Shown piece by piece: positions 63,034 to 63,836 of a stretch of 64,000 bases of DNA; position 1 is the first letter of the stretch; the number at the start of each line of letters is the position of its first letter. The translations under genes were made by a program, and so were the position numbers. This DNA comes from Klebsiella phage Roth37: the sequence record PQ657803.1, one strand, 5' to 3'. The notes beneath the pieces were generated by a model that saw only the letters and a list, made by a program, of their open reading frames with translations, did no database searches and was not told the origin of the DNA.

Positions 63034-63052
63034 AAAAACCTCAAAATCTCAC

Positions 63053-63081
63053 TTGCTAACAAGTGACTTTTATAATATAAT
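63053..63081 (+). promoter_or_regulatory. Early-type promoter TTGCTA-N17-TATAAT, divergent from oad
   Basis: Hexamers read from the sequence. TAGGAGG SD before the ATG at 63147. Confidence 0.55.
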
Positions 63082-63146
63082 ATTATTATAAATTAAATCA
63101 ACCGCCAAGTAAACCAGATTTTTTAAAACCATCTAGGAGGACCACT

Positions 63147-63371
63147 ATGGAAGTAGTTATAGGAGCACTTGTTTTACTCTCAATCGTACTATTTGTCATT
63201 ACTGTAAAGCAAGGTAAGGCAATCAAACAGCTAGAACGCACTAACGGGGTGTTGCAAAAGTCTTATGACAGCCAAACCCGTTTGCTGCATAAGGCGCAGT
63301 TAAACCTGTCTGAATGCAAGGCAGAACTAGAATCAGCAAACAAAATCTACATTACTAAGGGTATGGTGTAA
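63147..63371 (+). CDS. Small membrane-anchored protein (N-terminal TM helix + coiled-coil); candidate receptor-blocking / superinfection-exclusion factor
   Basis: 74 aa. TM segment VVIGALVLLSIVLFVITV with no lipobox cysteine. It sits at the llp-equivalent position, divergent from oad under an early-type promoter. Confidence 0.45.
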   Translation: MEVVIGALVLLSIVLFVITVKQGKAIKQLERTNGVLQKSYDSQTRLLHKAQLNLSECKAELESANKIYITKGMV

Positions 63372-63374
63372 AAC

Positions 63375-63836
63375 ATGACTATTGTATTAATTTTCACAAC
63401 ATTCTTTTTCCTGGCAGCAGTTTGGTTTGGTGTGCGAGCACATGACCTGCGGAACGCGATAGTAGCGGCAGATCTTCGTAACAAAAGTTTGCATCAAGAG
63501 ATCCTTCAAACTCGGGCAGAACGTCAAGTAGCGATCTCGAAACACCAACGAGTCATGAACGATCTTCGGAATGACCCGAGCAACCCGTACTACATCCCTC
63601 CAGTGACACCGCAGGTAGCGAGACGCAAACAGAATCGGGGGAACTCGGGAAGTTCTCGGCAGCTAACTAAGAATTCTTCATCGAATTCGGGAAGTTCTCG
63701 GAGTGATGACGGGTCGACCGCGGCAATCATAGCTACAACCGCGGCAGTTGCCACGTATAGCGGGTATGACTCGGGAAGTTCTTATTGCGACAGCGGCAGT
63801 AGCAGTAGTAGCTTTGATTCGGGATGTTCGTTCTGA
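63375..63836 (+). CDS. Membrane-anchored protein with coiled-coil and a Ser-rich low-complexity C-terminus
   Basis: 153 aa. N-terminal TM IVLIFTTFFFLAAVWFGV. C-terminus NSGSSRQLTKNSSSNSGSSRSDD...SGSSSSSFDSGCSF. 4 nt after the previous stop. Confidence 0.45.
   Translation: MTIVLIFTTFFFLAAVWFGVRAHDLRNAIVAADLRNKSLHQEILQTRAERQVAISKHQRVMNDLRNDPSNPYYIPPVTPQVARRKQNRGNSGSSRQLTKNSSSNSGSSRSDDGSTAAIIATTAAVATYSGYDSGSSYCDSGSSSSSFDSGCSF

What the first reader, a model, noticed from the sequence alone, without database searches (positions are those of the whole stretch)
63049..63836. Two early-promoter-driven membrane proteins divergent from the receptor-binding protein gene: candidate non-lipoprotein functional analogue of Llp
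In T5 the lytic-conversion lipoprotein Llp, which blocks the receptor FhuA, is encoded next to oad and expressed early. Here a strong early-type promoter (63053-63081) sits at the same position, divergent from the pb5-like gene. It drives a 74-aa protein with an N-terminal TM helix and coiled-coil but no signal-peptidase II lipobox, then a 153-aa TM + coiled-coil + Ser-rich protein. The pb5 homolog is diverged from T5 pb5, which suggests a different receptor. These could be a structurally different receptor-masking or superinfection-exclusion module, or spanin-like lysis proteins. The plus-strand orientation and early promoter at the end of the late block make them unusual.
Basis: partly seen in the sequence, partly recalled or inferred. 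Interest (0 to 1): 0.6.

Follow-up and report, generated by a model that had tools for sequence, protein, structure and literature searches.

The report
Two small early phage membrane proteins
Two small membrane-protein genes beside the receptor-binding gene of a T5-like Klebsiella phage are real, but they correspond to the two unnamed genes that follow the receptor-blocking gene llp in phage T5 rather than replacing it, so their function is still unknown and probably lies at the inner membrane.

Summary
The window's right end is a Klebsiella Sugarlandvirus (T5-like, 97.5% to phage Torridgeon). The promoter, the 74-aa ORF and the 153-aa ORF are all there as described. Both ORFs are under purifying selection and are conserved in about 75 phage isolates.

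The Llp-analogue reading is not supported, for four reasons:
- T5 itself has llp plus four more single-pass membrane genes (T5.159-162) between pb5 and the right terminal repeat. The window's promoter aligns with T5's llp promoter. ORF1 and ORF2 occupy the place of T5.161 and T5.162.
- ORF1 is a probable remote homologue of T5.161 (hhalign 75%; 0 of 150 architecture-preserving decoys reach its score). ORF2 is an orphan with a T5.162-like N-terminus and an invariant Pro-rich motif and Ser/Cys tail.
- Across 11 loci with three RBP types (29% identity or less between types), ORF1 and ORF2 alleles do not track RBP type. In T5-like controls, Llp does track pb5 type.
- ORF1's charge distribution predicts a cytoplasmic C-terminal domain.

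A complete holin, endolysin and spanin set lies elsewhere, so a spanin role is unlikely. Sugarlandviruses have no Llp-type lipoprotein at all. My best guess, at low confidence, is an accessory inner-membrane function, possibly exclusion at DNA entry. Interest is modest.

The parts
63053..63081 (+). Sigma-70 early-type promoter (TTGCTA, 17 bp, TATAAT) driving ORF1-ORF2. It is homologous to the T5 llp promoter.
   Evidence: consensus scans. (near-invariant in 11 loci). (aligns with the annotated T5, DT57C and S147 llp promoter).
63085..63113 (-). Divergent promoter-like site (TTTACT, 17 bp, TATAAT) facing the RBP gene.
   Evidence: Conserved. T5 has an annotated minus-strand promoter at the same place.
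63049..63066 (.). Palindrome TCACTTGCTAACAAGTGA. It overlaps the -35 hexamer of the plus-strand promoter and lies in the 5' leader of the RBP mRNA. Its role is unknown.
   Evidence: The arms are not maintained by compensatory changes in other lineages.
63135..63140 (+). Shine-Dalgarno sequence AGGAGG of ORF1, 6 nt before the ATG.
   Evidence: Sequence. Annotated as an RBS in the Sugarland record.
63147..63371 (+). ORF1, 74 aa. Single-pass membrane protein with an N-terminal TM segment (residues 3-19) and one long helix. Probable remote homologue and positional equivalent of T5.161 (orf3).
   Evidence: (phrog_37669).
63375..63836 (+). ORF2, 153 aa. N-terminal TM segment plus helix (residues 2-66), then a disordered Ser-rich region. 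Positional equivalent of T5.162 (orf4), but the family is an orphan confined to Sugarlandvirus-like phages.
63573..63629 (+). ORF2 residues 67-85, a nearly invariant Pro-rich motif DPSNPYY(I/V)PPVTPQVARRK.
   Evidence: invariant columns. (third codon positions vary while the amino acids do not).
63699..63833 (+). ORF2 residues 109-153, a nearly invariant tail R.DDGSTAAIIATTAAVATYSGYDSGSSYCDSG..SSSFDSGCSF. It has a weakly hydrophobic Ala/Thr stretch, two invariant Cys and no Lys or Arg after residue 109.
   Evidence: AF2 pLDDT is below 50.
61057..63033 (-). pb5-type receptor-binding protein gene (context). Type A allele, 40% identical to T5 pb5.
   Evidence: phrog_4815, 1e-257..
63920..63994 (.). 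Two hairpins (63920-63950 and 63959-63994) between ORF2 and the convergent first gene of the right terminal repeat. Likely terminators and/or the repeat boundary, which lies at about 63906-63919.
   Evidence: Repeat boundary taken from the GZ8 and Sugarland records.

Best explanation
ORF1 and ORF2 are a translationally coupled pair of small single-pass inner-membrane proteins, transcribed from the Sugarlandvirus version of the T5 llp promoter.

They are the counterparts of T5 orf3/orf4 (T5.161/T5.162), the last two genes of the plus-strand block llp-T5.159-T5.160-T5.161-T5.162 that sits between pb5 and the right terminal repeat. In this phage lineage llp and the two tiniest genes are absent. 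They are accessory, fast-evolving, mosaic genes whose sequence does not depend on which receptor-binding protein the phage carries, so they do not work like Llp.

Shown: real genes; an operon layout identical to T5 minus llp; a homologous promoter; no tracking of RBP type; a complete lysis set elsewhere.

Inferred: early expression; an N-out/C-in topology for ORF1, which puts its helix in the cytoplasm; homology of ORF1 to T5.161.

Mechanism I commit to, at about 0.25-0.3 on its own: the pair sits in the cytoplasmic membrane of the newly infected cell and acts on the envelope from the inner-membrane side. The most likely action is hindering DNA entry by secondary phages, as T4 Imm, P22 SieA and HK97 gp15 do. 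That would complement outer-membrane receptor blocking where Llp exists. The variable TM and helix parts would be the conflict interface. The invariant ORF2 motifs would bind a conserved host or phage partner.
For: Synteny: T5, DT57C, S147 and mar003J3 all have RBP(-) | promoter | llp(+) | small TM genes ... T5.161, T5.162(+) | terminal repeat (dNMPase -). The window and 10 related loci have RBP(-) | same promoter | ORF1 ORF2(+) | dNMPase(-).

Promoter homology.

Shared architecture: all of these proteins start with a TM segment with no Lys or Arg before it (ME... start), followed by a basic helix. Neighbouring genes overlap or abut.

ORF1 versus the T5.161 family by hhalign: probability 75%, score 28.8 over 55 columns. 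Decoys that keep the TM-plus-helix architecture score 11.6 +/- 2.3 (maximum 19.5; 0 of 150 reach the real score). With the TM part removed, the score is 14.7 against decoys at 8.1 +/- 1.9 (0 of 150). Cross-controls give 0.6-1.9%.

No tracking of RBP type. The positive control, in which Llp tracks pb5 while T5.160-162 track lineage, is.

T5.162 is present in 444 T5-like records regardless of receptor type.

Accessory nature: in the CRISPRi-ART T5 screen, T5.158-162 are all 'Not Fit' (PMC11879866 supplement). dN/dS is 0.05-0.35, against 0.00-0.03 for the terminase genes.

Lysis genes are elsewhere; PMC12136712.
Against: - ORF2 shows no demonstrable homology to T5.162. The hhalign probability is 7-11%, covers the TM segment only, and 3-4 of 100 decoys reach the score.
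- The ORF1-T5.161 link is a 75% profile match between short, compositionally biased proteins, and pairwise BLASTP gives only E = 0.18.
- Topology rests on the positive-inside rule alone. It is ambiguous for ORF2, where the 15 residues after the TM segment carry 2 Lys/Arg and 2 Asp/Glu in the window and a net -2 charge in L004.
- No experiment on T5.161/T5.162 or on these ORFs was found, so the inner-membrane exclusion mechanism is an analogy, not a result.
- The T5 CRISPRi screen also scored known structural and lysis genes as 'Not Fit', so its negative result is weak.
- ORF1's C-terminal allele ...KVDINKITNVPGAY occurs in the three type-B RBP loci L004, L026 and L020. Some linkage to RBP type therefore cannot be excluded.
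Confidence: 0.6

Rival explanations
1. Non-lipoprotein functional analogue of Llp. One or both proteins reach the outer-membrane receptor of the phage's pb5-type RBP from the periplasm and make it unavailable. This would prevent superinfection and loss of progeny on cell debris.
For: - The ORFs have the same position and the same (homologous) promoter as llp in T5.
- Sugarlandviruses have no Llp-type lipoprotein anywhere, yet their RBP alleles resemble FhuA-type and BtuB-type pb5 at 40% identity, so some replacement would be useful.
- ORF2's topology is not settled. Its Pro/Ser-rich linker could span the periplasm.
- ORF1 and the N-terminal half of ORF2 are far more divergent than the flanking genes.
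Against: - T5-like phages carry the equivalent pair together with Llp, and Llp needs no other factor (PMC9586334).
- ORF1 is 100% identical beside RBPs of 27% identity (L014 and L003). It is 37-39% identical beside RBPs of 94-95% identity (L003 versus L021 and L025).
- ORF2's conserved motifs are invariant across all three RBP types.
- The charges flanking ORF1's TM segment predict a cytoplasmic C-terminal domain.
- There is no similarity to Llp or Cor.
Confidence: 0.1
2. Lysis-related proteins: an extra i-spanin-like pair, or regulators (antiholin-like) of the T-type holin.
For: - Weak PHROG matches to Rz-like spanins: ORF1 to phrog_214 (E = 0.003), ORF2 to phrog_1152 (E = 0.17), T5.162 to phrog_739 (E = 0.32).
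- A weak NCBIfam holin_2 match (E = 0.1).
- The layout of a TM segment plus a helix, with conserved Cys residues, resembles i-spanins.
Against: - All of these matches are far below any family threshold and cover only the TM-plus-helix composition.
- Sugarland already has endolysin, a T-type holin, and an overlapping I-spanin/O-spanin pair with a lipobox in the early region (also PMC12136712).
- There is no lipoprotein partner near ORF1 or ORF2.
- The true I-spanin has Lys residues before its TM segment (N-in), whereas ORF1 and ORF2 have none.
- ORF1's 55-residue helix is too short to span the periplasm.
Confidence: 0.07
3. Host-takeover membrane factors unrelated to exclusion. Examples would be inhibitors or mimics of bitopic host envelope or division proteins, membrane repair after DNA injection, or counter-defence against membrane-associated host immunity.
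For: - Expression is early and the genes are dispensable.
- The architecture is the same as host bitopic proteins with a cytoplasmic helix. There is a weak ATP-synthase subunit b match for ORF1 (E = 0.01) and a weak FtsL match for T5.162 (E = 0.006).
- ORF2's invariant linear motifs suggest a conserved binding partner.
- PHROG files T5.162 under 'moron, auxiliary metabolic gene and host takeover'.
Against: - No family match reaches significance.
- Fast, mosaic evolution of the TM and helix parts fits a conflict interface better than binding to a conserved host machine.
- Nothing here distinguishes this reading from inner-membrane exclusion.
Confidence: 0.2

Closest known systems
Phage T5 orf3/orf4 = T5.161 (64 aa, PHROG 5851) and T5.162 (81 aa, PHROG 6447, 'membrane protein'). 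Both are uncharacterised.
   Same: - They are the last two plus-strand genes between pb5 and the right terminal repeat, downstream of the same promoter type.
- The two genes overlap or abut.
- Each has an N-terminal TM segment with no basic residue before it, followed by a basic helix.
- ORF1 matches the T5.161 profile (hhalign 75%, well above decoys).
- Both pairs evolve faster than the packaging genes and are independent of receptor type.
   Different: - ORF2 is twice as long as T5.162 and has no demonstrable sequence homology to it. It adds a Pro-rich motif, a Ser-rich linker and an invariant Ala/Thr-plus-Ser/Cys tail.
- The Sugarlandvirus operon lacks llp, T5.159 and T5.160.
T5 Llp / Cor-type superinfection-exclusion lipoproteins (PHROG 1119)
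   Same: Gene position next to, and divergent from, the RBP gene. A homologous early promoter. Small size.
   Different: No lipobox, no sequence similarity and no tracking of RBP type. ORF1 is predicted to face the cytoplasm. T5-like phages have both Llp and the ORF1/ORF2 equivalents.
Two-component spanins (lambda Rz/Rz1 type); Sugarland I-spanin and O-spanin
   Same: An N-terminal TM segment, a long helix and conserved Cys residues. ORF2, like the Sugarland I-spanin, is 153 aa long.
   Different: There is no lipoprotein partner and the ORFs are not in the lysis cassette. The charge pattern before the TM segment is the opposite. The phage already has a complete spanin pair.
Inner-membrane superinfection-exclusion proteins (T4 Imm, P22 SieA, HK97 gp15). 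This comparison is from general knowledge and was not tested here.
   Same: Small, early-expressed, membrane-anchored and dispensable. They are encoded by the infecting or resident phage and evolve rapidly.
   Different: No sequence relationship was detected: the PHROG scan gave no such hit. No phenotype is known. This is a functional analogy only.

Membership tests
Llp/Cor receptor-blocking lipoproteins | Signal peptidase II lipobox with an acylated Cys at the start of the mature protein | tested here: not met
   The first Cys is at residue 57 in ORF1 and residue 138 in ORF2. No lipobox ORF occurs in the window or in Sugarland 1-47.4 kb, apart from the O-spanin.
Llp/Cor receptor-blocking lipoproteins | Sequence similarity to a known Llp or Cor family | tested here: not met
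   PHROG 1119 is hit by T5 Llp (1e-19) but not by ORF1 or ORF2. tblastn with three Llp types finds nothing with E below 0.04.
Llp/Cor receptor-blocking lipoproteins | The allele follows the RBP or receptor type (cognate pairs) | tested here: not met
   ORF1 is 100% identical beside RBPs of 27% identity, and 37-39% identical beside RBPs of 94-95% identity. In the control, Llp and pb5 identities run together: 24/32, 68/65 and 99/97.
Llp/Cor receptor-blocking lipoproteins | The gene is adjacent to and divergent from the RBP gene, under an early promoter | tested here: met
   Expression timing is inferred from promoter homology, not measured.
Llp/Cor receptor-blocking lipoproteins | Binds the receptor and abolishes adsorption | not testable with these tools
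   Needs expression in the host, followed by adsorption and plating assays.
T5 orf3/orf4 pair (T5.161/T5.162) | The last two plus-strand genes between pb5 and the right terminal repeat, downstream of the llp-type promoter, overlapping or abutting each other | tested here: met
   The ORF1 stop and ORF2 start are 3 nt apart in the window and overlap by 1 nt in L003, L004, L014, L020 and L026.
T5 orf3/orf4 pair (T5.161/T5.162) | N-terminal TM segment with no basic residue before it, followed by a basic helix | tested here: met
T5 orf3/orf4 pair (T5.161/T5.162) | Sequence homology of ORF1 to T5.161 (PHROG 5851) | tested here: inconclusive
   hhalign gives 75% probability. The score of 28.8 compares with decoys at 11.6 +/- 2.3 (0 of 150 reach it). 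However, BLASTP gives E = 0.18, and HMMER places ORF1 in a separate PHROG, 37669.
T5 orf3/orf4 pair (T5.161/T5.162) | Sequence homology of ORF2 to T5.162 (PHROG 6447) | tested here: not met
   There is no BLASTP alignment. hhalign gives 7-11% over the TM segment only, and 3-4 of 100 decoys reach that score.
Two-component spanins | An o-spanin lipoprotein gene embedded in, overlapping or adjacent to the i-spanin gene | tested here: not met
   There is no lipobox ORF in or near 63147-63836 on either strand.
Two-component spanins | N-in/C-out topology with a periplasmic coiled coil long enough to reach the outer membrane | tested here: inconclusive
   The charge pattern predicts the opposite orientation for ORF1 and is ambiguous for ORF2. 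No dedicated topology predictor was available.
Two-component spanins | Provides the phage's spanin function (a member of the lysis gene set) | tested here: not met
   Sugarland has I-spanin (048) and O-spanin (047) next to its holin (044) and endolysin (043).
Inner-membrane exclusion proteins (Imm, SieA, gp15 type) | Blocks DNA entry of a superinfecting phage after normal adsorption | not testable with these tools
   Needs adsorption assays, K+ efflux or DNA-entry assays, and plating efficiency on cells expressing ORF1 and/or ORF2.
Inner-membrane exclusion proteins (Imm, SieA, gp15 type) | Sequence or profile similarity to a described member | tested here: not met
   No such hit in PHROGs, Pfam, NCBIfam, PADLOC or PDB.

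The most novel reading that the evidence does not exclude
ORF2's topology is not settled. It may be anchored in the inner membrane and send its Pro/Ser-rich linker and invariant Ala/Thr-plus-Ser/Cys tail (ending in Phe) across the periplasm. There it could disable outer-membrane TonB-dependent receptors, or their assembly or energisation, in a way that does not depend on receptor type. That would give an Llp-less T5-like phage a new, non-lipoprotein form of lytic conversion. The invariance of the tail across FhuA-like, BtuB-like and third-type RBP alleles would then reflect a target common to all these receptors.
Probability: 0.07. Interest if true: 0.75.

Novelty: new variant of a known kind. 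Interest (0 to 1): 0.3.

Why it matters
If the reassignment is right, the question moves from 'what replaces Llp in Klebsiella T5-like phages?' to two better-posed ones.

First, what do the small membrane proteins do that nearly all T5-like phages encode after the receptor-binding gene (T5.161/T5.162 and their Sugarlandvirus versions)? They are conserved in hundreds of genomes and have never been studied.

Second, how do Sugarlandviruses manage without any receptor-blocking lipoprotein, although they carry FhuA-like and BtuB-like pb5 alleles? These phages are widely used as broad-host-range Klebsiella therapy candidates.

The locus also shows how the RBP gene is exchanged cleanly between the terminase gene and an invariant promoter spacer. 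That is useful for engineering host range. None of this is a surprise to a T5 specialist, and no mechanism has been demonstrated.

Tried and rejected
Pfam, PHROGs, NCBIfam, PADLOC and PDB sequence searches gave no significant family for either protein beyond ORF1's own PHROG 37669.

A full HMMER profile scan of 1.84 billion representatives with the ORF2 alignment found only its own family and one distant look-alike. That hit, P0048 (E = 3.6e-4), sits on a 1.2-kb contig that gives no useful context.

AF2 models are a single helix for ORF1 and a helix plus disorder for ORF2. Fold searches would be meaningless, so I did not run them.

The first comparison with two divergent contigs suggested that RBP, ORF1 and the N-terminal half of ORF2 diverge together. 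Enlarging the set to 11 loci showed that this reflects lineage and mosaicism, not pairing with the RBP.

The second hydrophobic stretch of ORF2 (TAAIIATTAAVATY) was considered as a second TM segment. Its mean hydropathy of about 1.05-1.3 is too low to call.

DNA-level constraint as the cause of ORF2's invariant tail was rejected, because third codon positions vary.

The palindrome at 63049-63066 was considered as an operator or RNA hairpin. It is not supported by compensatory changes.

Literature searches for T5.159-162, or for any study of these Sugarlandvirus genes, found only annotation tables and a CRISPRi screen. A TerS-anchored scan of IMG/VR gave only 6 loci. The more distant Demerecviridae (Vibrio phages and others) lack this gene pair.
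Full report
**What the region is.** The last 3 kb of the window match Klebsiella phages of the genus Sugarlandvirus (Demerecviridae, T5-like): 97.5% identity to phage Torridgeon, with 77 matching records, all from Klebsiella. The layout, confirmed in annotated relatives, is:
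- TerL, 59257-60573, minus strand;
- TerS, 60573-61046, minus strand;
- pb5-type RBP, 61057-63033, minus strand;
- a 113-bp spacer;
- ORF1, 63147-63371, plus strand;
- ORF2, 63375-63836, plus strand;
- the right terminal repeat, which starts at about 63906-63919 with a convergent dNMPase gene.

In every record the two ORFs are annotated 'hypothetical protein'.

**Checking the observation.**

The promoter is TTGCTA, 17 bp, TATAAT at 63053-63081, matching 10 of 12 consensus positions. Only 8 plus-strand sites of that strength exist in the window. Two others with the same hexamers lie in the plus-strand early block. A divergent promoter-like site faces the RBP gene.

ORF1 has AGGAGG 6 nt upstream. 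ORF2 starts 3 nt after the ORF1 stop. In other lineages the stop and start overlap by 1 nt, which suggests coupled translation.

Neither protein has a lipobox. AF2 predicts ORF1 as one helix over residues 2-73 (pLDDT 87). It predicts ORF2 as a helix over residues 2-66 followed by low-confidence disorder.

Both are genuine genes. dN/dS is 0.05-0.27 for ORF1 and 0.14-0.35 for ORF2, against 0.00-0.03 for the terminase genes. In ORF2's invariant regions, third codon positions still vary.

**How widespread the ORFs are.** Both families are confined to Sugarlandvirus-like phages. A search of 5.8 billion proteins found 21 clusters for ORF1 and 26 for ORF2. tblastn found ORF2 in 75 phage records. A profile scan of 1.84 billion representatives with the ORF2 alignment returned only its own family and one distant look-alike with the same architecture, P0048. 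No Pfam, NCBIfam, PADLOC or PDB relative was found. The only named PHROG hits are sub-threshold matches to 'Rz-like spanin'.

**The key comparison: T5 itself.**

In NC_005859 the region between oad (pb5) and the right terminal repeat does not hold llp alone. After two annotated divergent promoters come llp (T5.158) and four further plus-strand genes: T5.159 (42 aa), T5.160 (35 aa), T5.161 (64 aa) and T5.162 (81 aa). Each is annotated as having a single transmembrane domain. The old llp fragment X75922 calls the last two orf3 and orf4.

DT57C, S147 and mar003J3 have the same arrangement. T5.162 is found in 444 T5-like records.

The window's promoter aligns with the T5, DT57C and S147 llp promoter: TTGCTx, 17 bp, TATAAT, then A.TAT.ATAAATTAAA. 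The Sugarlandvirus locus is therefore the T5 locus with llp, T5.159 and T5.160 missing. ORF1 and ORF2 sit where T5.161 and T5.162 sit.

The architecture also matches. All of these proteins start with a TM segment that has no basic residue before it (T5.160, T5.161 and ORF1 all begin ME(V/W)V...), followed by a basic helix.

**Testing homology.**

Pairwise BLASTP of ORF1 against T5.161 gives E = 0.18. ORF2 against T5.162 gives no alignment.

Profile-profile comparison used alignments I built from 24 T5-like loci. ORF1 against the T5.161 family gives probability 75% and score 28.8 over 55 columns. The cross-controls are much lower: ORF1 against T5.162 gives 1.9%, and ORF2 against T5.161 gives 0.6%.

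I built decoy alignments by permuting the TM columns and the helix columns separately, which keeps the architecture and composition. They score 11.6 +/- 2.3, with a maximum of 19.5, and 0 of 150 reach the real score. With the TM part removed, the real score is 14.7 against decoys at 8.1 +/- 1.9, again 0 of 150.

I therefore regard ORF1 as a probable remote homologue of T5.161.

ORF2 against T5.162 gives 7-11%, over the TM segment only, and 3-4 of 100 decoys reach the score. That is positional and architectural equivalence only. ORF2 carries additional material:
- a nearly invariant motif DPSNPYY(I/V)PPVTPQVARRK;
- a basic Ser-rich linker;
- a nearly invariant tail, R.DDGSTAAIIATTAAVATYSGYDSGSSYCDSG..SSSFDSGCSF.

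**Do the ORFs go with the RBP, as Llp does?**

I collected 11 loci from isolates and metagenome contigs. Their backbones are nearly identical (TerL 97-100%, TerS 91-100%), yet they carry three RBP types that are 29% identical or less to each other:
- type A (the window) is 40% identical to T5 pb5;
- type C is 40% identical to the BtuB-type pb5 of DT57C;
- type B resembles none of them closely.

ORF1 and the N-terminal half of ORF2 are very variable (ORF1 falls to 17-33% identity), but their alleles do not map onto RBP type:
- L014 (type B) and L003 (type C) have 100% identical ORF1.
- L003 and L021/L025 share a 94-95% identical RBP, yet their ORF1 is 37-39% identical.
- ORF1 is a mosaic of N-terminal TM alleles and two C-terminal alleles.
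- ORF2's motifs are invariant across all RBP types.

As a positive control I compared T5, DT57C, S147 and mar003J3. There, Llp identity follows pb5 identity (24/32, 68/65, 99/97%). T5.160-162 follow the phage lineage instead: T5 and DT57C are 78-91% identical for these genes despite using different receptors.

One residual association remains. The ORF1 C-terminal allele ...KVDINKITNVPGAY occurs in the three type-B loci L004, L026 and L020, but not in the type-B locus L014.

The 113-bp promoter spacer is almost invariant in all loci. DNA alignments break exactly at the RBP body. The spacer and the TerS end therefore act as recombination anchors for RBP exchange.

**Topology.**

In every variant of ORF1 the residues before the TM segment carry no Lys or Arg (ME...), while the 15 residues after it carry 3-7. 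By the positive-inside rule, which is established knowledge, this predicts N-out/C-in, so the helix would be cytoplasmic. The genuine Sugarland I-spanin has Lys residues before its TM segment.

For ORF2 the near flank is ambiguous: 2 Lys/Arg and 2 Asp/Glu in the window, a net -2 charge in L004, and +3 in L014. Residues 21-110 carry a net charge of +10, and the last 43 residues have no Lys or Arg. The Ala/Thr stretch is too weakly hydrophobic to call as a second TM segment. ORF2's topology is therefore open.

**Lysis alternative.** The Sugarland record annotates endolysin (043), a T-type holin (044), an O-spanin with a lipobox (047) and an overlapping I-spanin (048) in the early region. PMC12136712 says the same for a related phage. 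A scan of the window and of Sugarland 1-47.4 kb finds no other lipobox protein and no Llp homologue. ORF1 and ORF2 are therefore not needed as spanins and have no lipoprotein partner.

**Literature.**
- Llp is expressed early, and it alone blocks pb5 binding to FhuA (PMC9586334).
- BF23-type Llp is cognate to BtuB-type RBPs (PMC4728585).
- No paper discusses T5.159-162 beyond annotation. In the CRISPRi-ART screen, T5.158-162 are all 'Not Fit'. That screen also scored known structural and lysis genes as 'Not Fit', so it shows at most that these genes are dispensable (PMC11879866 supplement).
- Sugarlandvirus papers do not mention these genes, and the receptor of this RBP is unknown.

**Conclusion.** The feature is real but ordinary for a T5-like genome. 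It is the Sugarlandvirus version of the T5 orf3/orf4 pair, transcribed from the llp-type promoter, in a lineage without llp.

The Llp-analogue idea fails three tests (lipobox, similarity, tracking of RBP type) and is weakened by ORF1's predicted topology. It is not fully excluded for ORF2.

My working model is an accessory inner-membrane function early in infection. The most likely form is exclusion at the DNA-entry step, by analogy with T4 Imm, P22 SieA and HK97 gp15 (general knowledge, not tested here). This model is inferred from three things: the operon context shared with llp in T5, the membrane location, and the fast mosaic evolution. On its own it deserves no more than about 0.25-0.3 probability.

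The most notable by-products are the complete absence of an Llp-type lipoprotein in Sugarlandviruses, and the clean three-way RBP exchange between conserved anchors.

Noticed in passing
window 61057-63033; loci L003, L004, L014, L016, L020, L021, L023, L025, L026: Near-identical Sugarlandvirus backbones (TerL 97-100% aa) carry three pb5-type RBP alleles that are 29% identical or less to each other. Type A (the window) is 40% identical to FhuA-binding T5 pb5. Type C is 40% identical to the BtuB-type pb5 of DT57C. Type B is close to neither. The exchange boundaries are the TerS end and the invariant promoter spacer.
   Followed up: partly
whole window, plus Sugarland MG459987 1-47400 (L012, L051): No Llp/Cor-type lipoprotein gene exists anywhere in the genome. 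The only protein with a lipobox is the O-spanin. How, or whether, these phages block their receptor is unexplained.
   Followed up: partly
window 63049-63066: A perfect 7+7 palindrome, TCACTTG CTAA CAAGTGA, overlaps the -35 hexamer of the ORF1 promoter and lies in the 5' leader of the RBP mRNA. In other lineages one arm changes without compensation, so a conserved hairpin or operator is doubtful.
   Followed up: partly
window 63920-63994: Two hairpins (GGGGGGT...ACCCCCC at 63920-63950, and a 13-nt-arm inverted repeat at 63959-63994) lie at the junction of ORF2 with the right terminal repeat. They could be convergent terminators or part of the repeat boundary.
   Followed up: no
L005 (phage IME260) 2750-3229; L030 (mar003J3) 4706-5203: An HNH homing-endonuclease gene is inserted immediately after ORF2 in Klebsiella phage IME260, and immediately after the T5.162 homologue in Escherichia phage mar003J3. 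The insertion spot is the same in two genera.
   Followed up: no
L027 394-915 (Logan SRR30503343): P0048 (173 aa) is a distant look-alike of ORF2. It has an N-terminal TM segment with an acidic N-flank, a charged helix, a basic Pro/Gln/Ser linker, a weakly hydrophobic stretch and a Ser/Cys/Asp/Gly tail. It sits on a 1.2-kb contig with no informative neighbours.
   Followed up: partly
L026 4953-5396, compared with the same gene in L001, L004, L016, L021, L023, L025: The second gene of the terminal repeat (about 150 aa, next to dNMPase) is only 37-39% identical in L026, although it is 91-99% identical among the others. This is another replaced accessory gene. L025 and L026 also carry an extra 92-aa gene there.
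   Followed up: no
L006/L007 and L008-L010 (IMG/VR Demerecviridae; TerS 40-49% identical): More distant T5-like phages, including Vibrio phages, do not have the ORF1/ORF2 or T5.161/T5.162 pair beside the RBP gene. L006 and L007 have a 173-aa non-membrane protein there. In L008-L010 the RBP gene is inverted relative to TerS.
   Followed up: no
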